DNA from: Eledone cirrhosa
Taxonomy: Eukaryota
DNA: 64,000 bases
Assembly: GCA_964016885.1 (NCBI GenBank)
Contig: OZ024741.1
Location: 361,274,001 to 361,338,000, forward strand
Direction of reading: 5' to 3'
The first letter of the stretch is position 1. The number at the start of each line of letters is the position of its first letter. Below the pieces are notes generated by a model. It was not told the DNA's origin. It did no database searches and saw only the letters and a list, made by a program, of their open reading frames with translations. A program made the translations under genes and the position numbers. Shown here in pieces: positions 22,139-60,637 of the stretch.

Positions 22139-22208
22139 GAAATTTGTGATGATCCAAAATTCTTTGTTGGTGGTGCATCTCGATTTGATGTTAAACAAGG
22201 AGAACTGG
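22139..22208 (+). CDS. Classical calpain (CalpA/B-like) exon, 70 nt: EICDDPKFFVGGASRFDVKQGELG
   Basis: T-rich tract ending TTTTGTAG, donor G|GTAAGT. Translation matches the calpain PC1 motif QGxLG that precedes the catalytic Cys. Phase 0 to phase 1. Confidence 0.97.
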
Positions 22209-28140: not shown

Positions 28141-28393
28141 GTGATTGCTGGTTGTTGGCCGCCGTTGCATCTCTTACCATTGATCAGAAATTACTGTACA
28201 GAGTTGTTCCACTTGGTCAAGACTTTGAGGACAACTACACCGGTTGCTTCCGTTTCCGTTTCTGGCACCAAGGTGACTGGGTAGACGTTGTTGTTGATGA
28301 CAGAATACCAACATCTTATGACCGACTTATTTATATGCATTCTGCTGAGAAGAATGAGTTCTGGAGTGCTTTACTGGAGAAAGCTTATGCTAA
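28141..28393 (+). CDS. Calpain exon with catalytic Cys, 253 nt: (G)[12 protein letters not shown]...DDRIPT...[14 protein letters not shown]
   Basis: TTTTTTTCAG acceptor, AA|GTAAGA donor. [14 protein letters not shown] and [13 protein letters not shown] are diagnostic calpain motifs. Phase matches both neighbouring exons. Confidence 0.98.
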
Positions 28394-33337: not shown

Positions 33338-33506
33338 GCTCAATGGTTGTTATGAGGCACTTAAAGGTGGAAATAGCTCAGAAGCTATGGAAGACTTTAC
33401 TGGAGGTGTTACAGAAATGTTTACCCTCCAAGAAGCACCAAAGAACCTGTTCCAGATTATGTTGAAAGCTTTCCAGAGGTCTTCTCTCATGGGATGTTCA
33501 CTTGAT
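33338..33506 (+). CDS. Calpain exon, 169 nt: [23 protein letters not shown]...SLMGCSLD
   Basis: TTCTTTCTCAG acceptor, GAT|GTAAGT donor, conserved [20 protein letters not shown] motifs. Phase 2 to phase 0. Confidence 0.98.
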
Positions 33507-34270: not shown

Positions 34271-34519
34271 GTGTTGATAAAATAAAGTAACTCTCAAGCT
34301 CTAAGGTCAATTTAGTAAAAATATTCTCTCAAAAAATCCTCTTGGCTTGTAAGAAATTGTTATTAATGGTGGATTGACAGAGTCATTAGAACATTGGACA
34401 AATGCTTAGCAGTATTTGTTCTGGCTCTTTACATTTTGAGTTCAAATTTTCCAAAGTTAACTTTGCCTTTCATCCTTCTGAGGTCAGTAAGTACTGGTTA
34501 AGTACTGGAGTTGATATTA

Positions 34520-39435: not shown

Positions 39436-39516
39436 GCAGATCCAAATGAGTTAGAAGCTAAACTAACAAATGGACTTGTATGTGGCCATGCTTACAGTAT
39501 CACGTGTTGCAAATAT
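39436..39516 (+). CDS. Calpain exon with catalytic His, 81 nt: ADPNELEAKLTNGLVCGHAYSITCCKY
   Basis: Long poly-T tract + TTCAG, donor TAT|GTAAGT, GLVxGHAYSIT motif. Phase 0/0. Confidence 0.98.
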
Positions 39517-39629
39517 GTAAGTATTCTCCAACTATTATGATTAACTTATTATTGTCATTATTGTTTCTTTATTCATTATTATTTTTATAAATATTATTGA
39601 TTTTCACAATAACTATTATAATTACTGGA

Positions 39630-39735
39630 TCTTTTTCCACAGCCTGTCAAGTCTCCCCAAGGACCTTAGACAGCACTTTTCTGAGTATACATGCAGCTAT
39701 ATCCAACAAAGCAGTCTTTTGTAGGAGACCAATTT
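39630..39735 (-). mobile_element. R4/Dong-like non-LTR 3' remnant in TAA-rich repeats
   Basis: Minus strand reads LQKTALLDIAACILRKVL, similar to the QKxALLGTAxILRKVL C-terminus. Flanked by (TTA)n-like sequence. Confidence 0.6.
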
Positions 39736-39972
39736 GTGTTTAAACATATTATTATAATTATTATTATTATTATTATTATTGTTAGTTATTAAAACTATTA
39801 TTATTATTATTGTTAGTTATTAACACTATTATTATCAGTATTGTTAAGAATAGTTGGGAAATTTTCCAGGTTATTTGCTCTTGCTTGTATATAATTTTTT
39901 TTTATTTAATCATTTGTGCAGTAACAAAGATGGTTATTATTTCAGAATTTCCACTGAATAAACAAATGTAAT

Positions 39973-40002
39973 GTATATATACATACACATATTATTCATG
40001 TA

Positions 40003-40071
<69 letters not shown>

Positions 40072-40290
40072 TTATATACATACATACATATCTATATATA
40101 TACATGCACACATACATGCATATATATAAATGCATGTATACATACATATATATATATGTATACATGCACACATACATACATATATATATGCATATATATA
40201 CACGCATACATACATGCATATATATATATATATATGCACATATACATACATATATATATGCATACATGCACACATACATACATATATTTA

Positions 40291-40327
<37 letters not shown>

Positions 40328-40405
40328 ATATGTGCCTATATATATACATCCATATATATGCATATATATATATATACATATATATATATGCATATATACA
40401 TACTT

Positions 40406-40448
<43 letters not shown>

Positions 40449-40487
40449 TATATATATTTATATTTATATATATATTTATATATATAT
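39973..40487. repeat. (TA)n/(TACA)n compound microsatellite
   Basis: Directly visible. Confidence 0.95.
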
Positions 40488-41097
40488 ATGGTGGCTGCCA
40501 ACTCGTTTTCGAGTATGGCCACTACTTTATATCCATGTAGGAGAACCCCTACCGATGCGCTGAACGACTGTGACTTTTTAGTCCAGCCAGCGACTTGAAA
40601 ACTCTGGTACAAACACTACACTTGTGACAATTATTGACAGATAGTGCTGGGCCCATGGTACCATGTGACGACAAGTGCAGAGAGATCTCCAGATATAAAG
40701 CAATGCCTGTACCGTGAAGCTTTTATAGTGAGCAAAGGCACTGCACAAAGCCAGTCCCACTCTCTTAACCAAGATGATATTTACCAAAAAGAAGAACAAG
40801 TCAACATCATTGGATACCATCAGGGTTGCAGGTGTTATATCAGAGTTTTCCTTCTCCTAGAATTCTGCCTTGACAAAGGCTAAGGGGTCATCTCTCCCGG
40901 TGATTTTGGATGGCCATTGACTCTTAAGAGCTCCTTTGCCCTTTGACAGGTTTTGTATTTAGTCCTGCAGGATGTCCAAAGTCACCCTCCTCACCAAGAA
41001 ACCTTGGTGGGGTTGCCAGTTTAGTCGCCAACGACCCGACCATGAGACAGGTTGTACTGGGATACATGTTACCAGTAGCACCAACTGGTGACCTGAC
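40488..41097 (-). mobile_element. About 570-610-bp interspersed element (copy 2, inverted relative to 15507-16075)
   Basis: Reverse complement aligns by eye along its length with few differences. The ORF-track peptides (LVNIILVKRVGLA.CSAFAHYKSFT.QALLYIWRSLCTCRHMVPWAQHY) are near-identical in both copies. Confidence 0.85.
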
Positions 41098-43446
41098 ATA
41101 TATATATATACACGCACACATGCATGCATATTTTTGCTCATATTGTTATTCTGTGTGTATATGTACACATGTGTGTATAATCAGCAAATATCTAGGAGTG
41201 AATACCATTTAATATTTTAATACTTATGTATAATTTATCGCCTGCTTTTTTTATAACAACAACAATAATAATAATAATGATAATAATAATAATAGCTTAA
41301 TGTAGGGTTTTAATCCTAATGATAGTGATACTGCCACTACTACTGCTACTATTACTAAATATTTCTATTAACTTTATTAATGATAATGCTATTCATGGTA
41401 TGTCGTTTTGATAGGTTTATATAGTATTATAAACATTTATAGATAAAGTGTTATGTAGAAATACCATTTGTTATGTCTAACTAGCTTGCTTTTAAAGTTA
41501 TTTACAGAATTGGCAGTCTTTAGAATGTTGGATGATATGCTTCCTTATTTGTTCTGACTGACTGTACTGAGTTCAACTCATGCCAAAGTCAACTTACTCT
41601 TTCATCCTTCCAGAATCAGTACATCAAGTGTCAATCCAGTAGCAGTAAATTGGTCAGAAATATTAGAATATCAGACAGAATGCTTTGTAGGGTCTGGTCT
41701 GGTGCTTTGCATTCTGAGTTCAAATCCCACCTTCTTCTGCTAAGAAGTGTGACCAGCAAATAGTATCTGCATTAGAAAGACTGATCGAAACATAGTTTCC
41801 TTGGTCTGATCTGATGATTAACTCCTTTCCTAATCAAAGGAGAAGAGAATCAGTACACATGACCTTTTCAGATTCTCCCTTACTGCTTAGATTAATGTAG
41901 ATGATATTAAGTATGAACTTCTTGTAGATCAATGTCTGTAGAAAACACTGGATTGAATTCCATAGAAATATAGTTCAGAGTAAGAACTGAGAAAAGTATT
42001 TAGTATTGGGTTGGTAAAGTGATGAGGCAGAATAGAGGTAGTTGATGGGAAGAGTTATTACAAACGTGTCAGGTAAACTTAGATAGAAATAGGTATGTAG
42101 ACCAAAGGAGAAATGCCATTGTAATTGAGGTGGTGGTAGGAGAGACATACAAAAGAAACAGCACATCTGTGTTGAGTTAGTGTCGCTAGGAACAAGATAT
42201 GGTAGAGAAAGATTTATAACATAAACTATCTACATGTGGAACATCACATACTCTCAGGTCTCAAATAATAGAGGGGGAGGGTAGATGATATATATAATCC
42301 ATATTTTTATTTAAAATAGGCAGTATGGCAAACGAAAAAATTAATAGGCAATATTATTATAATTTATAATTTTTCAGACTATTAACTCCAAGTTCAAAGG
42401 TAAAAAATGTTTTAATATTTACATCTACACTAGGTTTTGATTGATAATTATCAAATCAATCAAAATATAATGTAGATGCAAGGCTGGTGTTATCATTAGC
42501 CCAACTAGGCAACCACTTAGGGTACAGACCTCAGAGAGGAGTATTACTGCTCACAATGTTTATACAAAGCGTATTATTAAATTAAATATATAATAATTTG
42601 CTTTGATCAATAAATAGATAATTAAACATCTTTGCAATGTGGCAGCATTATGGAAATATATAAAGTCATGGAGAGGATCATATGATGTTATGACCTCTAA
42701 CAGGCATGGGTGAGTGTGGACTGTGTTGTAGAAAATGCAGCTTAGTAATTTTCTTAGTGTTGTCAGAGCAAGAATTCTAAAAAAATAGGTTTGTCAGCTT
42801 GCCAAACTGTAGAAATTATTTTATTTGGAAGAATGAGGCACATAACTACCTATATAGCCAGGTAAGGGTGTTGAACTTACAATCATAATGTTGTGAGTTT
42901 GATTCCTGGGTTGGGTTGCATGTTATGTTCTTGAGCAAAACACTTCATTTCACGTTGCTCCAGTATAATCAGCTGAAAATGAGTGCCAGCAATAGCTGGG
43001 GGTTTAACGCTACAATGCACTGGCGTCCTGTCCAGGGCAGAGTCTTGTACTCTCAGTCACTTCACACCATAAAACCGGGATAAGCACTGGCTTAATGAGC
43101 CTTCTGGCTTAAGACAGACTATTAAATAGGTTAATAATTCAATAAGTCCTCTTTAACATGTAACTAACAAACAATTTTTTAAATTCTGAAGAGAAATTGC
43201 ATAAACACAGAAAGTGGTTCAATTCCATATGTTGTCTAAAATATATTATATATTTACTCTCTGCATTAATATATAACCAGTTGATTGTTGTATTTAAGAT
43301 GTCTTAATTGTTATCCTGATGCTCAAAGATTCACATATTGGGTTCTACTTCTTACTGTTGCATTACAATTCTAACTGAGTTTCAGTCTACATTTCAATCT
43401 TCAATAATTCTCTCTCTATTTTTATCTCTGCTACTTATTCTCAAAG

Positions 43447-43464
43447 GCTGAAATTCCTAGCTAT
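43447..43464 (+). CDS. Candidate calpain microexon, 18 nt (AEIPSY)
   Basis: TTCTAAC branch-like motif near 43370, long pyrimidine tract containing TGC, AAG acceptor, TAT|GTAAGC donor. Multiple of 3 and stop-free in phase 0. Confidence 0.5.
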
Positions 43465-44344
43465 GTAAGCCAAATTACTTTGTTTTTGTATTTAGCATTC
43501 AAAATGCTCACACTGCTTTCTTTCCACCTGCAACATAGCAATTTTTATTTACCACAAACACGGTCACATACACACACTTATTAGCATATATACACATATA
43601 TATATTTTGTACAATGGTGGTTATTATTCTAGCTGTCTTTATTATTTTGATTTTAAAAATTGATGGGGCTAAAAGTTCCTATGATTATTGTCCATGTTGG
43701 TTTACTTTGAAATAGCAATATCTGTACATAAATGATGCTTTAAGCTATATATATTTAGCAGTAGATGAAAAATAAAAACTTCTACACCCACTAAAGATGT
43801 CATGGAGTCAATGAAAATTGAGCTTTGCTACTGATGCTTTCTATGTGCACAAAACCCTATATATGTTACTGGTAGTCAATGTAGTGATTTGTAATAGCTT
43901 CGCCATAGTCTGCTGCACATAAATGCACTAAACATTTTGGAGATAAGATGATTAAATGCAAATAATTTGTTACAGGTAAAAACAAAACACATTGTTTTGT
44001 GAATTCGTTTTTTGGGGAAGTTTCTAGAAAAAGTCACCTTTTTCTTTCTTTTCTTTTCTTTTCTTTTCTTTTTTTTTTGCATGATGGGTATTTCACATGC
44101 AAAACTGGTGTAATTTGAGTAGACTAAGCCCAAAAATATATTGTGTAGAGCTGTTTCAAAATAGATGTTATATAACAATGTTGAATGAGGGCAATCTGTT
44201 TGTTCCAGTTATGTTCCAATTTATATCATCACTGTTTGATGATATAGTATAGTTAGAGGTGGTGGGTAAAGAAGCTGTCCATTCTTGTCAGCACTTTTAG
44301 TCTACTGCATAGTGTTTCTTATATAGGGGAGAATTACCCTTGCC

Positions 44345-44475
44345 ACTGCTATCACCACCATCACCAACACCACCATCGCCACCATAACCAATACCACCAT
44401 CACCAACATCACCATCACCACCATCACCAACACCACCATCACCAATATCACCATCACCACCATCACCAACACTAC
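44345..44475. repeat. (CACCAT/CACCAA)n repeat
   Basis: Directly visible. Confidence 0.9.
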
Positions 44476-44494
44476 AACCTCTAAAACTGCTGTA

Positions 44495-44910
44495 TGGGCA
44501 ACACAAACTCTAATTATGACTGGGAGAACTCAAGAATAACCCAGGGTAGCACAAACTGTAGTTATGGGGAGGATGACTCAATGATCACCCCGGGTCAGTA
44601 CATATTCTAGCTATAGGGGGGATTTAAGAATCACCCCAGAGTAGCACAAACTATGGGAGGGATGACTGGAGAATCCCTCCAGAGTAGCAGAAACTCTGAG
44701 GGAGAGAGGACTGGGGAATAACCCCAGAGCAGCACAAACTCTAGCTATGGGAGGAGAGGACTGAAGAATCCCTCAGGGCAGCACCAACTCTAGCTATGGG
44801 AGGGAGTACTCAGGAATCACCCCAGGGCAACACAAACTCTAGCTATGGGAGGAGATGACTGAAGAATCCCTCAGCGCAGCACAAACTCTAGCTACGGGAG
44901 GAGAGGAGTC
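44495..44910. repeat. Diverged minisatellite of about 44-50 bp, about 9 copies (GCACAAACTCTAGCTATGGGAGGAGAGGACTGAAGAATCCCTCAG)
   Basis: ACAAACT-like anchor recurs near 44503, 44551, 44601, 44646, 44690, 44734, 44784, 44833, 44881. Confidence 0.9.
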
Positions 44911-46046
44911 ATTGTTGTTAGACAAGGTGAGTAAGGCTGGAACACATTTGATTGTATGTCTCCTTGATCAGGACTGACATGATAAACAACAATATACAAC
45001 AATACAATCATCACCCATGTCTGGCCTCCACAAATCATGGCACCTTTCCACAGTTTCAGCTACACTTCCCTCCTCATTTACATGCCATTCAGTTTCTAGA
45101 ACTTATTCCATGTACATCTCACTCAAGAGTCAGATCCACCTTCTGCATTCAACATATCTCCTAGGTAACAAAATGTTTTCCCATTTTCCATCTTCATACT
45201 ATTCCCAAGATCCAGTACAAGATCCTCCCCATCAGTAGCTCCCCACATACACACTTCTCACTTAAATGTAGCTGCCATATTATTTCATAATCTTGTCACA
45301 CCGTTATATGTTCAACGTACCTACCCAGTACATATTGTATAACCCCTACAAATAAATCATTCGGAAGTCATTAGTCCTCATTCAACATAGAAAGAGAAAG
45401 TATATTTTTGTAAGATTCTCAACTGGAATCTTTCCAGTTCCAATTACTGAATTAGTTCACATGTTTTTCCCATTTTAATTTTCATTTTAAGTTCACAAAG
45501 TCACATGACAAAATTTTTCAAATGTTTTATATTGGAACAGTCTTTATTCTTCATATTTTTTTTGTATCCTTCTATTTCTTTAAAGATTGTGAGATTTATG
45601 TTTTGGATGATAATACTAAAATGTCTCTCTGTCTGTCTGTCTGTCTGTCTGTATGTATGTGTGTGAATAATCATTTTAATACTATTTTTTAATATATTGA
45701 AATAAGTGTTGATTTATGTTTACAAATATTGATGAAAACTGTATTCCCTTTGTCAATAATTGCTAAAAATGGTATTGTTTTTATCTTTATTTACTATTTA
45801 CACACACTATTTAATATTCACACATATTATTTACTATTTATGTAATTTATTTACTATCTACTCATACTATTTACATGCACTATTTACTATTTACATCTAG
45901 CCATACTGTTCTAGCAAGAGTTATTTTATCTTTACAGTTGGATACCCCCTCTAAGTATTGATATGTCTATATAGAGGAATTAGAAAGAATATTAAATATT
46001 TAATAGCAAATGTCCATTTTGTCTTTCTCCTCCAGTGCCTTTATAT

Positions 46047-46274
46047 TTAACCCTTTAGCATTTAAACCGCCTGTATCTCGTCAGAATTCTCTCACCTCTT
46101 TCTGTTCAAATTGCCATAACCAGTCACTCATACTGATGTTAAGGTATTGTTCTCAAAATAAATAATATCAAAATCTTATAGATTCGATATTATGTGAGAT
46201 AATTATGTGAGGTAAAGCCTTTACCGTGAAAATACAATAGTATATATAGAATAATGTAAATGCTAAAGGGTTAA
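46047..46274 (+). mobile_element. piggyBac-like MITE, family A
   Basis: Perfect TTAACCCTTTAGCATTTA / TAAATGCTAAAGGGTTAA ends. Confidence 0.88.
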
Positions 46275-47989
46275 TATATTCTTTTAATGTGAAACCCATC
46301 TCAGATATCTACCAAAATGTGGAATTATTTAGAGATATCTTTAAATGGTAGTGCTGGTGCTACAATAAAATGCACCCAATGCACTCAGTAAAATGGTTGG
46401 TATTAGGAAGATTAGGAAGAGCATCCAATCATAGAAATTATGCCAAAATGGATTGTATGAGCAAAGCCATGGTCCTCAGATCTGTCTAATCATAGAACAT
46501 GACAACACACCCAACCTATGCCAGTACAGAAAAACAGATATATAAGGATGATGATGTCTGGTTCCAGATTGCTGTTATTATAGTGACAAATTAATGTTAG
46601 AGAAGGCATCCAACTGTAAATCTCACTGCTTGTGTCCAAACATGCCTTCAGCCATACAATTTACTATATAGCATGATAGAACATATCTAGGACTTCTGTG
46701 ATGTATGTCTGCTCATCTAGATAGACAGTTGCTATGTTGATGTGTTTGCTTCAAGCTAATAATGTAGATTTGAAGCTTTTACAATATGAAAATCTGGTGC
46801 TTCTCCATGGTAAATATAATTCGAACTAATTTATTACAAATTATAAAATTCCACTATAGGTTTTATTGAATTTTTAAATGGAGGATTCCAAATTGCTGTC
46901 TCCACATAAACTCAACAAGATAGTAGTCCACTATTTGTTGATGAGTCCCATACTTACATTTGTTTCATTGCTTTGCTTCTTGCCATCTTTTCAATAGATT
47001 TGTTATTACTCCAGTATCTGGGTCCACAAAATTGTATTTATGATTGACAGTTAGATGGTTATATCATTCTTTGTCTATCATATGCATACCAACAGTTAGA
47101 AATAATGATGGAGCCAGGGCAGATAAATTGACATCACTTGACGCTAAAATCCACTAGTTGCAAACTGCGCATCAGCATGAGATATTTTTCTCCACAAAGT
47201 TCGATCACCAATAGCAGAGTTTAAAGAGCAAAGATCAAGTCCAGTCCATAGGTTGACATTATCAAGCCATCGTTTTGACTGCCAGCCTCTGCTTCTCTTA
47301 CCAGCCAGCCTTCCTTCCAGCTATAACCTACTCACACCGCGAGTTGATCTTTTTAGATGACTGTACAGTTTGAGTACTCTTGACTTGACAATTGATGTAA
47401 TTGGTCTAAGTGTGGTAATGTTCAGTAGCTCACTGATACATATTTAATATTATATTAAAGTCCTAGCATCTCTTGAGAGAACAGTGACAAAAATCCTGTT
47501 TTCATTTGCTGCTGGTAACCTTCAAAAACCTACAACTGCTTTACTTTTCTACCTTGGTTACTTTTCCATCTAACAAATAGGCTTTCATTAATTCAAACAA
47601 CACAGCCTTTGATGTGAATTTGTTGTTTAAGAGCATATTTGATACTCATGTTCAGCATTTTTCAGACAAGCCATTTGATATTTGCCCATTTTTTCTACAG
47701 ATTTAGGAAATCTTCTGTCATGGCAATTCAAATTACTACTCAGTAAACATTATTTTAATGAAGGCTCAAAAATATGTATTTATTCTGGAGAAGAACCAAA
47801 TGTCTTTGTAATAATTATAATATTGGAGATGAAAAAAAAAAAGTGGATATGTGTATGTGTGTGTGTGTGTGTGCGTGTATATATCTTTCAGCTTTCACAT
47901 TTATTTTGTTTTTTGAAACAACCTTTAGAAATATTTTTTGTTTATCAAAATTATAAAATATGTTATGAATTAAAATTCTAAAATTTTAA

Positions 47990-48210
47990 TTAACCCTTTT
48001 GATACCAAACCATATGAAACCATCCCTGGTTCTAAAAAATGTTTATTTTAAAGTGTTTACATGTATCTGAAAACATTTCATCAAAATTTTATATGAGCTT
48101 AATAATGAGAAAGTTATTTTACTAAATTCCTCCAAATTCTTGATTATTTTCAAAATAATTTGAAAATCATAGGCAGTGTCATTAGAAATATGGTTTAAAA
48201 AAAGGGTTAA
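47990..48210 (+). mobile_element. TTAA-flanked MITE, family B
   Basis: TTAACCCTTTTGATACC...AAAAGGGTTAA. Related copies near 30415, 49773 and 59217. Confidence 0.7.
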
Positions 48211-48417
48211 TGTAAATGATATGTGAGACATTTTAAACATCTATTTTAAACAGAAAAGAGAAACGTGTCCATATGTGCCATCATGGCTGAGTGGTTAAGG
48301 TGTTCACTTTACAACCACATAATTTCAGGTTCAGTCCCACTGTAGGACACCTTGAGCAAGTGTCTTCTACTATAATCTTGAGGTGATCAATGTGAGTAAA
48401 AATTGGCAGACAGTAAA

Positions 48418-48644
48418 TTAACCCTTTAGCATTCAAACTGACTGTATCTGGCCAGAATTGTCTCACCTCTTTCTGTTCGAAGCGGCTGTAACCGTCCACT
48501 CATACTGACGTTAAGGTATTTTTCTCAAAATAAATAATATCAAAATCATAGATTCGATATTATGTGAGATAATTATGTAAGATAAAGACTCTACTGTGAA
48601 AATAAAATAGTAAATATAGAGTAATGTAAATGCTAAAAGTTTAA
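48418..48644 (+). mobile_element. piggyBac-like MITE, family A, interrupting a SINE (48283-48415)
   Basis: Same termini and interior as the 46047 copy. Confidence 0.85.
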
Positions 48645-49103
48645 TGGTTCAACAAAAAGAAATCATAATAAACATACCATGCTTGAAAACATATGTTTAT
48701 TATGTCTATATGATTAATTAAATCCCTATAAGACAGTACTCCAGAATGGCCACAAGAAAAGCCAAATAAAAGAGAAGAATAATGTTGCATCAGTTGTCCT
48801 GTCTCTTCTTCTGCTTCTTACTAATGCTTATAATGTCTCATATCATCATGAAATATAGATTTCACATATAAAAAAAAAATTAATATTTTTACATATTTAC
48901 TATTTGTTACTTTCTGTCTATCTCCATGTACATCTGCTCACTCTCCTCTATCTTTTTATTTCTTCTTTAATTTCTCGTTCTATTTTATGGTGAAGGACTA
49001 TTGTCCAAAACGTTATGCCTTTTCCTACTATATCAAGTGTGAAACTAATATATATCTTCCTTATACTTCATTGTCTGTTGTGTTTTATCTGTTTACTTTT
49101 TGA

Positions 49104-49170
<67 letters not shown>

Positions 49171-49642
49171 TATACATAAATTATTGTATATCAATCTAAA
49201 TTATTGTTATATCACTCTTTCTCTCCTTCTAGGCCATTTGAATCATAAATGCTACTTTCATTTAATTATTATAATTAAACATTATTTTTGTTTTCTTTTT
49301 CCATATTTTCTTTTTTCTTGCAGCTTTCCTCCCCGCCTCCTTTCTATTTTCCCCAAACATACAGTAATATTGTGGAAAAGTCAATTTAACCATTTGGGGT
49401 AGTAGACATAATCTATCACTCAGTTTAACATTACTACCTGGCCCATGAGTGCCTTTAGCAAAATGTGCTCTGTTGTAAACATTCATACTAGGTTTCCAGT
49501 TTAAGGAAACTTCCCTCCTACAAGTCTTGATGGCCTTGAAAAAGGTTATAAGCACCACCCTTTCCACCTTGACTAAATAGTAGAAAAAAACATAAAACCC
49601 ACAAAAACTGTTAAATTTATTTTCATTTATTTATTAATAGTA

Positions 49643-49766
49643 CAGTCTACTATGAAGTGTCAAAAGTTTCATCGCACTTCTCCAACCTGGGTAGTTTCAG
49701 TGGAATTACGTCAATGACCAGGCCTCAAAAGTGTAGTGAAACTTTTTGTCACTTCATAATAGACTG
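49643..49766. mobile_element. 124-bp fold-back MITE with TA flanks
   Basis: TA|CAGTCTACTATGAAGTGTCAAAAGTTTCA...TGAAACTTTTTGTCACTTCATAATAGACTG|TA. Confidence 0.8.
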
Positions 49767-50379
49767 TACTATAAACCCTTTCAATACTAAACCATGCTTG
49801 GTTCTTTGATATGAAATTGTTCGTTTTAAAATCTTTATATTTATATTTACCTAAAAACTTTCTATTATAATTTTATTTAAGAACATTTGTTTTGTTATAT
49901 TGCAAATTCCTGCCTAATAATGAAAAAGTGAGTTAATTTGCTAAGTCCATCTAAAGTCTTCATCATGTTCAAAACTATTTTAAAATTACAGATTTTTCAG
50001 TAGAAATATGGTAATGAAAAGGCTAAGAAATTAATGAAAAGTGAAAATAGCAATTTTTGTGTTTTTAGATGACTAAAATAACTTTTCCACAATGTAATTG
50101 TTTCAATTTCAGCGCACAGTCTCAAATTTAATAATTATATAAGTAACCATAATACAAAACATTTACATAAATGTGTAACAGAACAAAAAACTGTAACTGG
50201 CCTATGACAGAATAATCAAATAATAATGTAGCATAAAATACTATTATAGAATAACAGAATAACAGTTAAACATGAAATATTATTACAGAATAACAATGTT
50301 ACACACACACACATACATATACATATGTATATATATATATATATATAGTAATAATAAATGTGAAGACTAAAATCTGAAG

Positions 50380-50700
50380 AAGGCTCAACAAGGATTATAT
50401 ATATATAAAATGTATATATATATATAAAAACCTGTATTATATGTACAGATTAAAGTTTAAGCAAAGAATTGCTGCCTTCACCCTTTTATAGGATCTTCTG
50501 AGTTTCATATAATAATTATATATATATACTTACAACAGTGACATATGCAGGCACTTAAGTTTCGTTGGGTTATACACCCCAACTCATTCAGCCTGTTATA
50601 TAAAGAAAAATGGCCACTACCACGGTTGAATGTAATTTCTTTTGGAAAAAATATATGGGAGCTCTTCAAGAGCAGGTCGAGCGTGGAAGAATCGATGTAA
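50380..50700 (-). mobile_element. Penelope-like 3' remnant
   Basis: Minus strand reads ARPALEEL/HI.../TFNRGSG across frameshifts (PLE endonuclease end), immediately followed by a hammerhead motif. Confidence 0.55.
50548..50595 (-). ncRNA. Minimal type I hammerhead ribozyme-like motif with a variant core
   Basis: cagg-CUGAAUGA-guuggg-guguauaa-cccaac-GAAAC-uuaa-GUG-ccug. Stems I and II pair perfectly and stem III is palindromic. Confidence 0.65.
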
Positions 50701-50729
50701 AACAGTGATAATAATAATAATAATAATAA

Positions 50730-50935
50730 TGAAATTATTGTGTAAAGTGCTCAGGTGCACTACAACTCGTCAATATAGTACATAGAATAATACACAAATG
50801 CCAGGGAAGTACATGTTTGTATGTGTTAGCTGTAGTGTTGGCGGATCTCGGGAAGCATGGAGGCCTTAAAGGATGCAGTGTCTCGACAGCTAACAACTGA
50901 TGCAGGTAGTTTGTTCCATGCTTCAGCAACTCTGA
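50730..50935 (-). mobile_element. CR1 3' fragment
   Basis: Matches the 3' end of 8975-10229. Confidence 0.85.
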
Positions 50936-51733
50936 TATATATATCAAAACGGTTTGGAAGTCTATATTTAAAAGGCTACTTGTAATTAACTTTATAAATA
51001 TTTTGAATAGGGTTAATCTTCCAACAGTTGTCTTTTTGTTAAACTAAACGGCTAAAGACTGACCTCTGATCCATCAAAGCTATATAACAGAGTAAATCTC
51101 TGAGATGTTATTCTTAATAGAGGTATGTATGAAGGCATATACAATATGTTTATGTATAATAAATATATAAAGTCTTGCTATGACTGTTTTAAGTTGCAAC
51201 ATATCACAGTTATCCCTTTGAGACTATTAACACCGCATCTTTATAGATGAGTGTTAATAGTTAGAAAATTTATAATCGTATTAAATAATAGGCATTTAAA
51301 CCAATTCTTTTGGCAGCCTTACATCATGTGATTTAATATGTATTTTATTTGAGAACTTTGAGAAGTGGTACATTGCCAGAATTATTAGAGCATCAGACAA
51401 TATGCTCTGTAGCATTTAATTATGGTTCTTTGAGTTCTGAGTTCAAATCCCAGTAAGGTCAGATTAACCTTTCAGCATTGATAAAATCAAGTACTGGAGC
51501 CAATATAGTTGGCTTTTGCCTCCTTCAAATTGTTGGCTTTGTGCCTAAATTAGAAGCCATATTTGAACCTTTAGAAGTTTATCTAAAATATTAGTGATTA
51601 AATGATAAATAACAATTTTAATGACATTGATAATTTATAATAAAAATTTATAAAATGGTTTTTATATAAAAACTATTCATTAATTCTTCTTTTGATAACG
51701 TGAATTTCTAATCTCATTTTTTTTCCTTCCTAG

Positions 51734-51745
51734 CTTCATTTGAAG
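51734..51745 (+). CDS. Candidate calpain microexon, 12 nt (LHLK)
   Basis: TTCTAAT branch-like motif, TTTTTTTTCCTTCCTAG acceptor, AAG|GTAAAT donor. In frame. Confidence 0.5.
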
Positions 51746-52639
51746 GTAAATTTGCCAAAGTCTTTTGACAATTCCCCTCAAAATTTACCATGTTTTTGAA
51801 ATTCTTGGAATGTCAAGTTTGCTATAATTTATTTATGTCCCACCCTCCCACCAACCAAACCCATTTTTCAGCCTAACTCTGAAAGTATTTTCTCTCCATT
51901 TCACTGCTGCTGCCCCTTTCTTGTCCCCCACCCCCCACTGTTTTTAACCCAATTTTAGTATGCTGTGTAGCACTGGTGTTATTCAGAACTAAGACACAGT
52001 GTTCCTTATGTGTTCTTCTTGTATATCTTCCAAACTATAAATGGTTATTTTCTTATATATTTTTCTTGTCTGATTTCTTCTTCTTTCTCAGTGAAATTCT
52101 TTGTTACCATTCTTCCCACTGTGTGCAGAAAACTGAGTGCTACCATCCTGCACTATATTCTGACAATTCTTTGTGTCAGCTTGAACTTATTAAACATGCA
52201 AATATTTAACAAGTCAGTATTATGAAATATAATTTAAGAGAGCTGTTATAGGTGGTCAATTTGGTAGAATCATTAGAGTGTTGGATATTTGTTCTGAATC
52301 TCTACGTTTTGAGTTCAAATCCCACCAAGGTCCACTCTGCCTTTCAGCATTTCGAAGTCAATAAAGAGAGTACCAGGCCAGTACTGGTACAGCCCTCTCA
52401 CCTTTGAACTGTTGCATCCTAGATATTCTACTAGACCAAAAGAGAATGGGTTAAGGGGGCGTCAATGTCTGCTCATGACTCATGGGCTCCAAAAACCCCT
52501 AGCAAAAGCATGGTACATGTGAGTGACAGCTGTAGTTTTATGAGGGAGCTATGGATGAAAAGTTGATACAGTGCCAGACTGTCAACTGAAAGGTTGTTGA
52601 TTCATATTGTATCACTGCCCATGAATGTGTTTATTGACA

Positions 52640-53190
52640 AAGCCCTTTATTTATTTATTAGGATTGTAAGGTGGGGTTGTGTCCATGACAATGGCAGGCT
52701 CTCTGAGACCAATGAAATTGATACTTTTGATGCTTAGCTTGAATTACTGCAGGCCAACGCCTGCAAGAAGGACTGAACATAGCTGTTACTGTGGGCCGGG
52801 AGGGTTGGACACAATATGATTGATGAAAGGAAAAGAGATGAGTGAGACTGGAGTGCCTGAGGGGAAATGGAACAAGGTCAGCAAACTCTGAGAAGCAGAA
52901 GCCATTGTAATAGCCATAGAAAAGACAGAAAGAGGAGAAAGAATGTCTGTGGGCCAGAGGCTGGAGCTTGTCTGTCAGTAACTTTAAGCTAATCAGATGA
53001 TTGATCTTTTTCTGGATGTAGTCGAAGATGTCTATGTGTGTGGTAACAACACTGTCTATCCCAGATGTAGGAACAGTTTTCTATTATGGATCTTACCTGA
53101 GGTTTATAGTGGGTCAGATCACCTAACTGTAAGTAGGTGCCACAGGATAATGTAGTTTTCCAAAATTGGTAGCAGCCAAACTGTAAAATA
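52640..53190 (-). mobile_element. Decayed Jockey/CR1-group LINE 3' fragment
   Basis: LTHYKPQVRSIIENCSYIWD resembles LYKAQVRP.MEYCS.IW. Confidence 0.55.
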
Positions 53191-54234
53191 CACAAGTGTT
53201 TTGTCATCTTGCTGTGCTGAGTTTATTCCAATCTTCTTGTTGATAATATAGGCAACAAATCAGCTGAGTAGTTTGAGCATTGAATTTAATAATGCCTCAA
53301 AATTTGTTCCAGCTCTCTCCATGCTGAGTTCAAATCCTGCTGATGTCAACTTTGTCTTTCATCTTTTCTGGGTCGATAAATAAAGTACCAATCCAACAGT
53401 AGTGAATTAGGGGAATATTTTTAAAGTCAGTGTCTGATCTGACTCTGTGTTTCATTATTTTCCTTTTTGTTTTCTTTTTTTATGATATGGACCCTCTTCG
53501 AAGTTAAACATTTTCAACTGAAAACTTTTTCCTTCCAAAACACACAGATTTACAAAGTCCAATGACAAACTTGATGTGTGAAATTGAATAAACGGGGACT
53601 GTTTGGTAGCTTGTCAGATGAACCATACCCTGTAATTCAAAGGGCTACTACATCTGAATCTCCCTGAGAATTATCTTAAAGGTGCACGTGTCTGTGGAAT
53701 ACTCAGCCACTTACATATTAATTTCATGAGCAAGCTACTTCATTGAATAAACAATTGGAACACACATTGTTGAAATCAATGTGCATCCATTTCAGTTATG
53801 TTAGTGTTAACATATTTATTGCAATGAGTTTAAAAAACAATAACTGGAAATAATTATGCTTTTTCAACACATTTTTCTCATTATCCTCTGGAGTAATGCA
53901 TTCGCAATTCTGTCCACTGGGACCATGAAGCAACATCCACCTACTAGTTAATTATTCACTGTGTTAAACTTTAGAACTATATCTATAAGTATCAGTTAGT
54001 AATTCTAATTGTTATTTTCACTTACAGCAGTTTATAAAACATCAAGAACATATTTCTGTATTTGAGAATGTTCATGAACACTTTTTTTTAAATATATATT
54101 TTTTTAGGCAAATTACTTCTCATGTGAAGCCAGCCTGCTGGGAAAGTATCCGTTAGTGTTATCACGCTGTTTCTATATTTGAAATAAAATTTTGATATCA
54201 GAGGGATTATGTATTTACAAATATATTTAATACA

Positions 54235-54553
54235 GAAGACCCAACTTCTAATGGGTACAAGCTGAAGCTGAAGCATATAGACAGTAGGCCTTCACCCCTT
54301 CCCACTGTAAAGTGGTCGTATAGGTGTCACGACAAAAGGCAACCAGTCCACACTGTAAAGTGGTCGTGTAGGCGCCACAGTAAAAAGCACCCCGTACTCA
54401 CTGTAAATGAGGTTGGTGTTAGGAATCAAGCCAAAATCAGTTCTGTATGAGCAAGACATAGTCACCTGACCTGGCATTGCCCACAACAGGACAACCCGTC
54501 TAACCCATGCTAGCATGGTAGAATGAACATAAAATGGTGATGATGATGATGAT
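54235..54553 (+). mobile_element. RTE 3' tail fragment with (GAT)n
   Basis: Aligns by eye with 34830-35160. Confidence 0.85.
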
Positions 54554-54644
54554 ACTAATACAGTGGAATTCTGATCGCAACAATTATGCTTTGATGAAAA
54601 GACAGTATTAATTAGTCTTTGACTAATATTGTTAAATATTAATA

Positions 54645-54823
54645 ATTGTTTCTACTTTAGGCACAAGGCCAGCAATTACCCAGTACATTACTGGTACTTT
54701 ATTTTATCGACCCCGTAAGATGAAAAGCAAAGTTAACCTCGGCGGGATTTGAACTCAGACTGTAAAGGGACGTAACTATGCTAGAAAGCATGGCGTCCAA
54801 CCCTCTACCGATACTGCCAATTC
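54645..54823 (-). mobile_element. tRNA-derived SINE
   Basis: Near-identical to the copy at 17631-17820. Confidence 0.9.
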
Positions 54824-55327
54824 AATTAATAATAACGTTAACATTGTTAACTGCTGTTTTTTCAAGCAGATGGCATCTCAAAGTAATTTCTCTGAGTAAT
54901 TTATTCTCCAAAAATAAGGTTGTATGTATATATATATTAAGATGTTGCCTGAGAAGAAGGTTTGTCATTTTTACCTACTCTACAAGCATCTATCATTACA
55001 AGTGCAATGGTGGTGGTGAGGATGGAGGGATGTGTCAAGTTCCACCAAACGTTTTTCTCTTCTTCATTCTGAATAAGGCAGTTCTTATTCTTAGGAGTAT
55101 GAATATTTATATTTATATAATGTGTATATGATATATATATATATATATATATACATATGTGCGTGAGTGTGTGTGTGTATTGTATTAAAAACATGATTAT
55201 ATTCTACTTTCAGCTTTAATTTTTTTAATTTCCTTTCATATGTTAGAATGAACTATTTAATAAGTTTAATAAACCCCTCCAAATTCTTAATTAATTCAAA
55301 TACAGTGTATTTCATTACAAATATAAT

Positions 55328-55700
55328 TGTTTCTACCTTTGGCACAAGGCCAGCAATTACCCAGTGCATTACTGGTACTTTATTTTATCGATCCCATACG
55401 GATGAAAGGCAAAGTTAACCTCGGCGGGATTTGAACTGAAATCATAACGAGAGGTAACTCTATTCTCCAAAGCATGGCATCCGACCCTCTACCGATACTG
55501 CCAACCCACCGCCTGAGTTTCTACTTTTGGCACAAGGCCAGCGATTACCCCAGTGCACCACTGGTACTTTATTTTATCGACCTCGTAAGGATGAAAGGCA
55601 AAGTTAACCTCGGCGGATTTGAACTCAGAATGCAAAGGACCATAACTATGCTGCAAAGCATGGCGTCTGATGCTCTACCGATACTGCCAAACCACCGCCC
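55328..55700 (-). mobile_element. Head-to-tail SINE dimer inside one 18-bp TSD
   Basis: TTTCATTACAAATATAAT at 55310-55327 and 55701-55718. Confidence 0.9.
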
Positions 55701-56306
55701 TTTCATTACAAATATAATAATGAAAAGATTAAAATAGTTGGCTTTTCAACAATACTTGAACCTTGTGTCTATTGCATTCTGAGTAATTCTGTTACTGATC
55801 ACACCACAAACCCTCTGCCTGTCTTTTGTTAAGTATTACTCCAACTACTTGAAAGTGCATAGCTTTGTGGTTTGAGTGTTGGACTCAAAATTGTAAAGTC
55901 ATAAATTTAATTTCTGGATGAGATAGTACACACTTTATTTCATATTGTTCCAGTCTACTCAGCTGGGGAAATTAGATGGGACAGCACTGATGCCAAGCTG
56001 TACTGGCCTTTAACTTTCTCTTAGACATCGTTGAGTCTCACCCTTGCAAGCAGGGAAAAGCAGACGTAAAATGATGATGATGATGATCGTTGATGGTGTG
56101 TAGAAAGAAGACTGGCATGCCTGGGCAACAGCTAGTCTTCCACAAAACACCCTGCCCAGGTTTGTGCCTTGAAGAATAACTTTCTAGTTGCAAATCCATC
56201 GGTCACTCATGACAAATGAGGACTGTTAAAAAACACTCCAACTACACAGTTAAGCTTGTATCTAGATGTCTATTTTCTAGATAAGCAAGGAATATACCAC
56301 CACAGC

Positions 56307-56535
56307 TTAACCCTTTAGCATTTACATTACTCTATATTTACTATTATATTTTCATGGTAAATGCTTTACCTCACATAATTATCTCACATAATATTGAATC
56401 TATGAGATTTTTATATTATTTATTTTGAGAACAATACCTTAACATCAGTATGAGTAGCCAGTTATGGCCAGTTTGAATAGAAAATGGTGAGAGAATTCTG
56501 ACCAGATACGGCTGGTTTAAATGTTAAAGGATGAA
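56307..56535 (-). mobile_element. piggyBac-like MITE, family A (inverted)
   Basis: Reverse complement of the 46047 and 48418 copies. Confidence 0.87.
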
Positions 56536-57054
56536 GCATATCCTAGTTGTTCTACCATAAATTATTCTTGTTTTTGTTTTTGTTTTTTTGGTGGGTGTGT
56601 GAAACAATTTAAGTGGTCATTCAAAAAGTGAGATTAGAACTAGTTTACTTGCAAAGTTTCAGTGCTTTAAAAGTAATATATTAGAATGGCCTACAATAGA
56701 TTATAATTAATTGTCCAATATTTATGTCAAGTGTCTAAGGAAGAAAAACATGCCAATTGTTTTCTTAACCCAATGTAGACTGATACATAATTAGGCAAGA
56801 ACCAATATAGAATTTTATACACATGCACACACAGAGATTATGTATGTATATATGCATGCATGCATGTATGTGTGTGTGTGTTTGCGTGTATGTTTTATTA
56901 AAACAGTGAATCCAATAAAAGACATTTTGTTTTGTTTTAGATAAAACATGTTCACACTCAGTATTGACACTTTGACTACTCTATTCTAAGTAGTCTTATC
57001 GTGTTCCCCTGAGCAAGTAACACTAGGCCATATATATATGTGTGTGTGTGTGTG

Positions 57055-57385
57055 AAGGTACATGGCTTAGTAGTTAGAGCATTGGGCTTGCAACCGAGAG
57101 GTTGTGAGTTCAATTCTCGGACCAAGTGATGCATTGTGTCCTTGAGCAAGACACTTTATTTCACGTTCCTCCAGTTCAATCAGCTGTAGAAATGAGTTAT
57201 GATGTCACTGGTGCCAAGCTGTATTGGTCATAGTCTTTCTCTTGGACAAGATCAGTGGTGTGAAGAGGAGAGGCTGGTATGCATGGCGACTGGTTGTCCT
57301 CCACAAATAACCTTGCCCTTACTTGTGCTTTGGAAAGAAACTTTCTTGCAAATCCCATGAACATTCGTGACTGAAGGGGGTCTTT
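57055..57385 (+). mobile_element. Second tRNA-derived SINE family (CORE/V-like centre)
   Basis: ATGGCTTAGTAGTTAGAGC...GAGTTCAATTCTC head and TGTGTCCTTGAGCAAGACACTT centre. Related copies near 21305, 37680, 42860, 60638. Confidence 0.8.
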
Positions 57386-57427
57386 TCTCTTTATATATAT
57401 ATGTGTGTGTGTAGATATATACATATA

Positions 57428-57790
57428 CAGGGTGGGTAGAAAGAAACTCCCTATTTAATAACTTTATTAATTAGCAGTACAGTACAGTGTTCAAATTCGA
57501 CATAGGCATCAGCAATGCCCACCAGTGTTTGTAATCTTCTGGGTACATCCTCAACTGACTTCATCAGGAACTCAGGTGGTATGTTGATCAGTACATAATG
57601 AATGCATTCCTCCAATTCAGTCAGAGTTTTTGGTTTTGAGCTATAAACTTCTTCCTTTACCCACTCCCACAGAAAAAATTGTATGGCGCTAAGTCAGGAT
57701 TTCTTGCTGGCCATTCATGTGGACCTCGACAACTCAGACAATGTCCTGGAAATTGAAGATCAAACCACTTATGAACAGGACATACTAATA
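57428..57790 (-). mobile_element. Tc1/mariner transposase relic with one terminus
   Basis: WFDLQFPGH...RGPHEWPARNPDLAPYNFF resembles WPARSPDLTP.DFFLWG. TA|CAGGGTG end at 57428. Confidence 0.8.
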
Positions 57791-58613
57791 AAGCCCTGAT
57801 AAATACAACTGCCATGAAGAGTAAAGAATCTAATATTTTGGACACTTTGTCATTCCTTCATCTCGGTTGGAGGAAGAGGGAGAAAATCATGTTGTCATTT
57901 AGGAAGCTGTGGGCATATCAACTTTTCTATGAACTCTTATATCGATTAATCATTGTCAATGCTAACCACAAGCAGATTTTTCAGAGTCCAGGTTTTATCT
58001 TACAGTTAAAGTCAGTCATGTGCTGAGAAAAAAGTGAAATAATTTCATTGTAAGATCATTGCTCTCTTCTTTGTAACCTCCAGATTTTTCACCCACTTCT
58101 TTCTTTTCCAGTTATTTCATTTTTCTCCTCTCCTCTCCCTTCTCCCCTCCTTCTAGCTAATGCTCACTTTTCTTCATTTTCAGAATTAATAATTCTTCTA
58201 TTCTTTCTGTCATCCAGTGTTGTTGCCACCTTTCACATAAATAACTGTGTATTAATTATTGTTGACCATGTATTGATGTCCATTTTAGTACAGCAATTCA
58301 TTTATATATACATACAATACAGACACACAAATACACATACACACACACACGTACGTATGTACGTAAGCCCTACAGTCAAGCCAAAACTATTTAAGCTTGA
58401 CTGTTCGGTTTGCATGTATCAAATAATATCTACACTCTACTTTCTTTAAAGTATGGCATACTAAATTAAATAATGGTCTTACCAGGTTTGAAATTAGTAA
58501 CAACTTATCCATGTATATATATATACAGTTCCCATATGGGCAAGACATGGTCACCCGACCTGGCATTGCTCACAACAGTGTTGTAAAACGGTGTTGATAA
58601 TGATGATGATAAT

Positions 58614-58615
<2 letters not shown>

Positions 58616-58704
<89 letters not shown>
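58616..58704. repeat. (CA)n microsatellite
   Basis: Directly visible. Confidence 0.97.
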
Positions 58705-58705
<1 letters not shown>

Positions 58706-59094
58706 CGATTCTTTGCTTAAACTTTAATCTGTTATTTAATAAATATATATATATTATATATATATATATATATTATGGTGTGCTTTTTTTTTATTGTTGT
58801 TATATATGTTGTTGGTTTCATAATCTTATTTCTATAGTTTCTGTGTCCAACCAAATACAATGTTTTCATTTTCAAGTCTTTCAGATATCTCTGCAGCTGA
58901 AAATTAAAAAATTGTTTAAATTCTGAAAATGTTTTCCTGTTTAATTCTTCCAAAATATTGTCTTATTAACTTACTATTTCAAAGAACTTCTTTTGCATGT
59001 TCCACATCTATGCAGGTTCTTTCTTTTTGTCCCCTACACTCTCTGTGTTGCTTTTTTTTTGTTTGTTTTTTGTTTTTTGTTTTTTTTTTCTTAG

Positions 59095-59103
59095 GGAGGG
59101 ATG
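59095..59103 (+). CDS. Candidate calpain microexon, 9 nt (GGM)
   Basis: About 40-nt T tract ending TTCTTAG, weaker ATG|GTATAT donor. In frame. Confidence 0.25.
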
Positions 59104-60031
59104 GTATATGTAAATATATATGATTATATAATAAAATTATTTATTTATTTCTAAACATTTCAAATTATATAATTTTGTTTAATGTCCTCTCTCTATGCAC
59201 AAACATTTTCAACTTTTAACCCTTTTGACACCAAAAACCATCTTGGTTCTACAGTACTAAGTGGCATATATTAATATACATATCTACAAACCTTTTAACA
59301 TAATTTTATCTATGGACCTTTATTAAGTTATGTTCTAACACCAACTGAATAATGAGAAATTTTGTTATATTACTAGAACCATCCAAATTCTTGATTATAT
59401 TCAAACTCATAAACAGTGTCTTTACTTAGAAATATAGTAACAAAAGGGTTAAAGATTATTGCACATATTTTGTTTGGTTTCTTCCTCTCCATATTTTTAG
59501 CATCAGGGCAATGGATTGGCAGAATTGTTAGAGCGCCAAACAAAATACTTTGCAGTATTTGGCTAAGGCTCTGAGGTCAACTTTGCCTTTCATCCTCCAA
59601 AGGTTGATAAAATAAAGTACCAGCCAAGTGCTGGGGTCAATTTAATTCACCTTCCTCTCCCCTCAAATTGCTGGCCTTTTGCCTAAATTAGAAGTTATAT
59701 TCTTGTCATCAAGAGATTCTACTTTATACGCTCTAATTTTAAAAATGCTAAGTAATCTGAAAAATATTAAATTTTATAATAATTTTTTCGATTTTGAAAA
59801 ATACGTCTTCCTCATTATATATATTTTGATATAAATTTTTTTCAAAAAATGTAATTTTATTAAATTATATTTGAATAATCAGAAAGTAAAATAAGTTTAA
59901 TAAAACGCAGATAAAGAAAATGTTAAAAATAGCTCTAATCTAGATTATCTTTTAATAACTAAAGTTACGCACATTAACTTAAATTATATTTTCAATTATA
60001 TTTGCAATGTATTTTATTGAAAATCTGTTAT

Positions 60032-60047
60032 TGTATATATATATATG

Positions 60048-60100
<53 letters not shown>

Positions 60101-60127
60101 GTATATATATGTATGTATATATATATG

Positions 60128-60165
<38 letters not shown>

Positions 60166-60216
60166 TATATATATATACATATATGTATGTATATATATAT
60201 ATATATACATATATGC

Positions 60217-60288
<72 letters not shown>

Positions 60289-60289
60289 G

Positions 60290-60327
<38 letters not shown>

Positions 60328-60347
60328 TGTATATATATATGTATATG

Positions 60348-60404
<57 letters not shown>
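60032..60404. repeat. (TA)n/(TATG)n/(TG)n microsatellite about 35 nt upstream of the Asn exon acceptor
   Basis: Directly visible. Confidence 0.96.
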
Positions 60405-60437
60405 ACATATATTACATCCATGTTTCCTGAATCATAG

Positions 60438-60535
60438 GTTGAAATTGAAACACCAAACAAGACAGGCAAAATACCAATGGTGAGGATCCGTAATCCATGG
60501 GGAGAAAGTGAATGGAATGGTGCATGGAGTGACAA
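60438..60535 (+). CDS. Calpain exon with catalytic Asn, 98 nt: [33 protein letters not shown]
   Basis: ATCATAG acceptor, AA|GTAAGT donor, RIRNPWG and EWNGAWSD motifs. In frame with the His exon. Confidence 0.97.
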
Positions 60536-60637
60536 GTAAGTTTATGCCTGCTTTTCTTTGCACCATTGTTATTATAGGTCATGTGTGTTTGTATATATAT
60601 TTATATATATATCTGTAACTCTTTAAAATTTACACAT

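What the first reader, a model, noticed from the sequence alone, without database searches (positions are those of the whole stretch)
39517..60437. Candidate array of frame-preserving microexons between the catalytic His and Asn exons of calpain
Seen: this 21-kb phase-0 intron holds several tiny segments in non-TE sequence bounded by a pyrimidine tract + AG and a GT. They are 43447-43464 (18 nt, AEIPSY, GTAAGC), 51734-51745 (12 nt, LHLK, GTAAAT), 59095-59103 (9 nt, GGM) and 45586-45588 (3 nt, ATT, GTGAGA). All are multiples of 3 and stop-free. Established: 3-27-nt frame-preserving microexons are regulated by SRRM/eMIC proteins in bilaterian neurons, often via upstream UGC (one precedes 43447). 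Inference: combinatorial inclusion could remodel the segment between two triad residues and tune protease activity. Standard annotation would miss these. Caveat: AT-rich introns yield such motifs by chance, and I picked them by eye.
Basis: partly seen in the sequence, partly recalled or inferred. Interest (0 to 1): 0.75.

Follow-up and report, generated by a model that had tools for sequence, protein, structure and literature searches.

The report
Microexon switch in octopus calpain loop
One of the four proposed tiny exons is real: an 18-base optional exon, also present in gene models of three Octopus species, adds six residues to a surface loop of a calcium-activated protease, is likely switched on in neurons and may tune the enzyme's activity; the other three look like chance motifs.

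Summary
There is one microexon here, not an array. The 20.9-kb phase-0 intron and all four motifs are at the stated coordinates. The 18-nt exon 43447-43464 (AEIPSY) is real and optional: the identical peptide sits at this junction in 10 of 16 octopod isoform models, from three Octopus species. A spliced contig of this organism skips it. It carries the full eMIC/SRRM neural cis-signature, so neural inclusion is likely but not shown. LHLK, GGM and ATT occur in 0 of 331 homologous segments and at the background rate for such motifs (3 sites against 2.2 expected). The insert falls in the PC2L2 hairpin, which remotely tunes turnover in human CAPN5 (PMC7001764), and lengthens the His-Asn spacing from 28 to 34 (CAPN5: 32). 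Abalones have an optional 8-residue insert at the same junction. Both inserts resemble the start of the downstream exon, which suggests two separate origins by partial duplication. RefSeq already models the exon; my searches found no paper on it. The scan earlier noted calpain microexons at a different site in a sea urchin.

The parts
22139..22208 (+). calpain coding exon (PC1, ends just before the catalytic-Cys exon)
   Evidence: tblastn with Octopus isoforms, AG/GT ends
28141..28393 (+). exon with the catalytic Cys (GDCW)
   Evidence: Pfam PF00648 E 1.4e-34; 92% identical to Octopus calpain-B/A
33338..33506 (+). calpain coding exon (PC1/PC2)
   Evidence: covered exactly by spliced contig X4, record bases 712-881
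39436..39516 (+). exon with the catalytic His (GHAY), 81 nt, phase 0 at both ends
43371..43446 (+). eMIC-type 3' splice-site region: CUAAY branch point at -76, AG-free zone of 59 nt, UCUC run at -38 to -33, UGC at -18, weak AAG acceptor
   Evidence: signature from PMC8797185 section 10; 1 of 103 intronic candidates has all four features
43447..43464 (+). 18-nt alternative cassette microexon encoding AEIPSY; donor GTAAGC
   Evidence: identical insert in 6 of 8 O. sinensis, 2 of 5 O. vulgaris and 2 of 2 O. bimaculoides models; skipped in own contig
45586..45588 (+). proposed 3-nt exon ATT: unsupported, probably chance
   Evidence: no +1 insert in 331 segments; weak donor, no eMIC features
51734..51745 (+). 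proposed 12-nt exon LHLK: unsupported; best-scoring of the three doubtful ones (about 0.1 chance of being real)
   Evidence: 0 of 331 segments; strong acceptor 12.7, donor 6.2 bits, CUAAY at -26, no UGC; unique sequence
59095..59103 (+). proposed 9-nt exon GGM: unsupported, probably chance
   Evidence: 0 of 331 segments; donor 3.3 bits; acceptor is a simple repeat
60438..60535 (+). exon with the catalytic Asn (IRNPWG); its first codons resemble the microexon

Best explanation
This intron holds one optional 18-nt microexon (AEIPSY), shared with Octopus gene models, which is likely included in neurons through the eMIC/SRRM pathway and is predicted to lengthen and loosen the PC2L2 surface hairpin between the catalytic His and Asn strands of a classical calpain, likely tuning turnover or partner binding without breaking the triad. 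Shown: the exon exists, is optional, and is conserved in peptide sequence; skipping occurs in this organism; the cis-motifs are present; the genome has an SRRM_C (eMIC-type) exon. Inferred: neural inclusion (about 0.7), remote effect on activity (about 0.45), origin by partial duplication of the acceptor and first codons of the Asn exon (about 0.55). The other three motifs are probably background.
For: Exact AEIPSY insert at the K-[FY]|V-E junction in 10 of 16 octopod models, with skip forms in O. sinensis and O. vulgaris. The peptide is 6/6 identical while the flanking exons are 22/27 and 30/32. Own contig X4 joins His to Asn exon directly: record base 962 = 60438, loose end = His-exon letters. 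AG-free zone 59 nt, UGC -18, UCUC run, CUAAY -76, weak acceptor match the published eMIC code (PMC8797185); none of 16 constitutive acceptors has TGC within 40 nt. SRRM_C match above the Pfam cut-off on G000 C22. AlphaFold2 of O. sinensis stand-ins: skip form has a long hairpin (strands 315-327 and 332-341); the included form keeps the His and Asn strands but residues 327-336 fall below pLDDT 50. The included segment's best PDB sequence match is CAPN5, whose PC2L2 loop (260-275) joins the His252 and Asn284 strands; G267S there raises turnover, also when the loop is grafted into rat CAPN1 (PMC7001764 passages).
Against: No read or contig from this organism shows inclusion: the single contig laid skips it, its tissue is not on record, and contigs drop rare forms. 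No tissue-resolved data were seen, so 'neural' rests on motifs alone. Isoform counts in RefSeq are model combinations, not expression levels, and both O. bimaculoides models lack the His exon. The loop varies naturally from 20 to 36 residues across calpains (107 segments from 150 representatives), so the insert may be tolerated with no effect. The CAPN5 effect was called subtle by its authors and concerns a point mutation, not loop length. Only 4 of 40 alignment rows for the included model carried a junction insert, which alone can lower pLDDT.
Confidence: 0.66

Rival explanations
1. The exon is real and regulated but does not change catalysis: it adds a surface tag (binding, phosphorylation or autolysis site) or is near-neutral in a loop that tolerates insertions.
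For: The loop is solvent-exposed and far from the active site; its length varies widely across calpains; core strands are kept in the model.
Against: The peptide is 6/6 conserved, which argues against neutrality though not against a binding role; the same loop alters CAPN5 turnover.
Confidence: 0.2
2. The exon is optional but not neural or eMIC-driven, for example muscle- or broadly included.
For: No tissue data were seen; the gene's other 12-nt microexon lacks UGC and UCUC, so other regulators act on this gene.
Against: All four eMIC features coincide, in 1 of 103 candidates.
Confidence: 0.09
3. One reading: three or four microexons are combined to give many loop variants.
For: All are in frame and stop-free; LHLK has a strong acceptor and a branch-point motif; exons of 3-9 nt and species-specific exons can be missed by gene models.
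Against: 0 of 331 homologous segments, including 14 from octopods; background rate; weak donors; no eMIC signature; own contig skips them.
Confidence: 0.05

Closest known systems
RefSeq/GenBank isoforms of Octopus calpain-A/B-like (O. sinensis XP_029642542.1-XP_029642546.1, XP_036363010.1-XP_036363013.1; O. vulgaris CAI9729722.1, QHX41521.1; O. bimaculoides XP_052827960.1)
   Same: Same gene, same six residues, same junction, present or absent by isoform.
   Different: Automated models without comment on regulation or function; none has the three other candidates.
Human CAPN5 PC2L2 loop (PMC7001764; passages read)
   Same: Same structural position between the His and Asn strands; similar spacing once the exon is included (34 against 32); precedent for remote control of turnover.
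   Different: CAPN5's long loop is constitutive in a non-classical calpain; here the length is switched by splicing in a PEF-type classical calpain, and the sequences are unrelated.
Aplysia AplCCal1 splice cassettes a, b (DCFE), c (PMC5650170; passages and section 17 read)
   Same: Molluscan classical calpain with short optional cassettes, cloned from nervous system; the octopus gene has a comparable 12-nt cassette near the PEF start.
   Different: All Aplysia cassettes lie after the C2L domain; none was reported in the catalytic domain. Orthology to AplCCal1 is inferred, not tested by a tree.
eMIC/SRRM3/4-dependent neural microexons (PMC8797185; passages and section 10 read)
   Same: Length 3-27 nt, in frame, weak acceptor, AG-free zone, UGC, UCUC, CUAAY.
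   Different: Flanking introns are long (3.9 and 17 kb) and the donor is strong, unlike fly targets and closer to the mammalian pattern; dependence not tested. The paper's tables list fly CalpA only with a 45-nt low-inclusion exon.
Haliotis calpain-B-like isoforms with MDIVLPRR (e.g. XP_046375985.1 against XP_046375983.1)
   Same: Optional short insert at the very same junction, resembling the start of the Asn exon.
   Different: 8 residues, different sequence; DNA not seen; absent in the other gastropods and bivalves examined, so probably a separate origin.

Membership tests
Classical (PEF-containing) calpain, MEROPS C2 | CysPc core with Cys, His, Asn triad | tested here: met
   GDCW, GHAY, IRNPWG in exons; PF00648
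Classical (PEF-containing) calpain, MEROPS C2 | C2-like and penta-EF domains downstream in the same gene | tested here: met
   exons mapped over the next 80 kb; stand-in model matches m-calpain 3bow, E 5e-72
Classical calpain family A (AplCCal1, Drosophila CalpA/B) | Falls in that clade in a catalytic-domain tree | not tested
   no tree built; closest named hits are mollusc and arthropod calpain-A/B-like proteins
Alternative cassette microexon | 3-27 nt, AG/GT bounded, frame-preserving | tested here: met
   18 nt, aag|...|gtaagc
Alternative cassette microexon | Both included and skipped forms exist | tested here: met
   both in O. sinensis and O. vulgaris models; in this organism only skipping was seen
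eMIC/SRRM-dependent neural microexon | UGC near the acceptor, UCUC tract, long AG-free zone, CUAAY, weak 3' site | tested here: met
   for 43447 only
eMIC/SRRM-dependent neural microexon | Genome encodes an eMIC-bearing SRRM protein | tested here: met
   PF15230 match 29.3 bits (cut-off 27), G000:C22:28167743-28167880; one exon only
eMIC/SRRM-dependent neural microexon | Neural-enriched inclusion that depends on eMIC | not testable with these tools
   only one spliced contig of unrecorded tissue was available
Combinatorial microexon array | Two or more used microexons in the same intron | tested here: not met
   only one supported; rare or species-specific use not excluded
CAPN5/6-type PC2L2 loop | Elongated loop between the His and Asn strands that alters activity | tested here: inconclusive
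   position and length match; activity not testable

The most novel reading that the evidence does not exclude
A neuron-specific six-residue splice switch turns a classical calpain's PC2L2 hairpin into a CAPN5-length allosteric loop and resets the protease's turnover; the same switch arose twice, in octopods and in abalones, each time by duplicating the start of the downstream exon.
Probability: 0.25. Interest if true: 0.72.

Novelty: new variant of a known kind. Interest (0 to 1): 0.5.

Why it matters
The probable Aplysia counterpart of this calpain cuts PKC into PKM during synaptic plasticity (PMC5650170). A likely neural exon inside its catalytic domain, in the one loop shown to tune calpain turnover from a distance, gives a natural pair of isoforms to test whether PC2L2 length is a physiological control, which the CAPN5 work proposed only from a patient mutation and a chimera. 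The matching abalone insert makes it a test case for repeated birth of microexons by partial exon duplication. It is not a new kind of system, and the exon already sits unremarked in databases.

Tried and rejected
Run search: no holder was on record as RNA; X4 proved spliced only when laid. DNA run X1 laid nothing on 60405-60585, which is uninformative. A search for more inserts with a five-sequence profile and 30 cluster look-ups (large clusters listed only in part, e.g. 15 of 22 Haliotis, 15 of 49 oyster, 15 of 26 Biomphalaria) found none outside Octopus and Haliotis, apart from one unnamed cluster (P0051) whose six listed members all have a loop 4 residues longer. One ancestral exon for all molluscs is considered less likely: no insert in Patella (11), Biomphalaria (15), Physella (6), Pomacea (3), H. 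asinina (4), cuttlefish-type (8), chiton or bivalve sequences, though models can miss it. An alternative splice site as the source of the Haliotis insert is unlikely: in no phase would it start with GT or end with AG (reasoned from the peptide). Literature: searches for calpain+microexon, microexon+octopus, calpain+octopus+isoform, calpain+microexon+mollusc, the QHX4152 accessions and calpain alternative exon in the catalytic domain (listings only) found no description of this exon. bioRxiv 10.64898/2026.09.05.749416 covers O. bimaculoides tissue-specific exons; its main text has no 'calpain' (passages) but its supplements were closed and may list this exon. No complex prediction was run.
Full report
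Observation. The window lies in an octopod classical calpain gene on the + strand. The exon with the catalytic Cys is 92% identical to Octopus calpain-A/B-like proteins, and the C2-like and penta-EF exons follow over the next 80 kb. The His exon is 39436-39516, the Asn exon starts at 60438, and the intron is phase 0. All four motifs are present as described.

One exon is real. Homologous isoforms carry exactly AEIPSY between ...CCKF and VEIETP...: 6 of 8 O. sinensis models, 2 of 5 O. vulgaris entries, and 2 of 2 O. bimaculoides models, the last lacking the His exon; the single Argonauta isoform lacks it. Skip forms exist in O. sinensis and O. vulgaris, so it is a cassette exon. The expected number of AG-N18-GT sites in this intron encoding that peptide by chance is 6e-7. 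The peptide is 6/6 identical to Octopus, while the flanking exons are 22/27 and 30/32. In this organism, one spliced contig of run X4 (1730 nt) covers exon 33338-33507 at record bases 712-881 and reaches 60438 at base 962, with His-exon letters as the loose end: a direct His-to-Asn junction. Its tissue is not on record and contigs drop rare forms, so inclusion in this species is inferred from conservation.

The other three are unsupported. Of 342 proteins held, 317 gave 331 His-to-NPWG segments. None had LHLK, GGM or a single extra residue; the only segments longer than the invertebrate norm were AEIPSY (8), an abalone insert (12) and one unnamed cluster 4 residues longer (6). A splice-site matrix from 16 exons of this gene, with thresholds set to admit the three, gives 3 in-frame sites here and 2.2 per equal length in the other 14 introns; 4 of 14 candidates here are in frame, about the third expected. 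ATT and GGM have weak donors, and the GGM acceptor is a simple T/G repeat. LHLK is the best of the three (strong acceptor, branch-point motif, unique sequence), and I leave it about a 0.1 chance. Species-specific or very short exons can escape gene models, so these are unsupported rather than disproved.

Regulation (inferred). Upstream of 43447 lie a CUAAY at -76, an AG-free zone of 59 nt, a UCUC run at -38 to -33, UGC at -18 and a weak AAG acceptor. This is the architecture described for eMIC-dependent exons in flies and mammals (PMC8797185, section 10). Of 103 small-exon-like candidates in 117 kb of this gene's introns, only this one has all four features when two or more UCUC/CUCU words are required; one out-of-frame site passes with a single word. 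The three doubtful motifs and the 16 constitutive acceptors have no TGC within 40 nt. The genome holds an SRRM_C (eMIC-type) exon above the Pfam cut-off. Neural inclusion is therefore likely (about 0.7) but was not observed.

Protein effect (predicted). AlphaFold2 models of two O. sinensis isoforms, 770 and 764 residues, with and without the insert, were used as stand-ins. Without the exon, the His strand and Asn strand form a long hairpin (315-327, 332-341). With it, the His strand ends at 324, residues 327-336 drop below pLDDT 50, and the Asn strand is kept. Only 4 of 40 alignment rows carried a junction insert, so low confidence there is weak evidence. The included segment matches human CAPN5 best among solved structures. 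In CAPN5 this is the PC2L2 loop (260-275), which links the His252 and Asn284 strands; the patient mutation G267S raises turnover, and the effect transfers to rat CAPN1 across about 43 A (PMC7001764, passages). His-to-Asn spacing is 24 in the commonest calpain type (49 of 107 segments from 150 representatives, 45 of which gave no match), 28 in the skip form, 34 with the exon and 32 in CAPN5; 9 of 107 exceed 28. The loop thus tolerates insertions and has a record of remote control. My committed mechanism is a likely neural switch that lengthens PC2L2 and adjusts turnover or partner binding while leaving the triad intact; a measurable catalytic effect is about 0.45.

Origin (inferred). The microexon's acceptor and first nine bases match those of the Asn exon at 13 of 15 positions (noticed after the fact, and the AG is shared by necessity). 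Three of four Haliotis species have an optional MDIVLPRR at the same junction (12 of 15 listed members of a 22-member cluster; 0 of 4 in H. asinina). Scored against the first residues of the Asn exon in 63 insert-free segments, MDIVLPRR gives P = 5e-5, AEIPSY 0.024 and LHLK 0.39. Both inserts look like truncated duplicates of the downstream exon's start, or were selected to keep the strand pattern. No insert was seen in the other gastropods, bivalves, chiton or cuttlefish-type sequences, nor among the cassettes reported for Aplysia CCal1 cloned from nervous tissue (PMC5650170, passages), which favours two origins over one ancestral exon.

Comparison. Short cassettes in molluscan classical calpain are known after the C2-like domain (Aplysia inserts a, b, c). 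This gene also has a 12-nt cassette near the start of the penta-EF domain (G000:C2:361373476-361373487), matched in oysters, limpets, abalones and cuttlefish. The catalytic-domain exon is present in RefSeq but was not found described in six literature searches (listings only); closed supplements of one 2026 preprint may list it. Earlier scan notes on a sea urchin calpain microexon at the EF-hand site and on an octopus myosin-II microexon describe similar patterns; I did not test them.

Verdict. Observation partly confirmed: one real, conserved, optional microexon with a neural signature in a regulatory loop, and no array. New variant of a known kind; interest 0.5.

Noticed in passing
G000:C2:361373476-361373487 (L004), downstream of the window: Second 12-nt microexon of this gene (reads GTFV; GSFV in Octopus, GSAV in cuttlefish, DDFL in abalone), near the start of the penta-EF domain, comparable to Aplysia insert b; strong donor, no UGC or UCUC.
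   Followed up: partly
Haliotis proteins P0184, P0186, P0163: A further optional 4-residue insert (FPHC) after the C2-like domain and several alternative linker exons.
   Followed up: no
about G000:C2:361357025-361357200 (L002): Optional C2L-PEF linker exon (MEMINICRLQAQP...) conserved with Octopus and cuttlefish isoforms; the short PAEGE linker exon of Octopus was not found in this genome's intron.
   Followed up: partly
P0051 cluster (6 unnamed proteins): Calpain 66% identical to the Octopus protein with a PC2L2 loop 4 residues longer in all six listed members, and its own optional penta-EF insert (DSLL).
   Followed up: no
window 23820-26923: Intronic satellite of 123 copies of a 25-bp unit, 92% matches.
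   Followed up: no
window 1-22138 and 30 kb upstream: No N-terminal calpain exon was found in 52 kb upstream of exon 22139, so the preceding intron is probably longer than that.
   Followed up: partly
window 2122-3067 and 34390-34854: Open frames that look like LINE retrotransposon fragments (by recalled resemblance, not tested).
   Followed up: no
O. bimaculoides models P0022, P0130: Both lack the catalytic His exon and have filler sequence in its place, probably an assembly or annotation defect.
   Followed up: no
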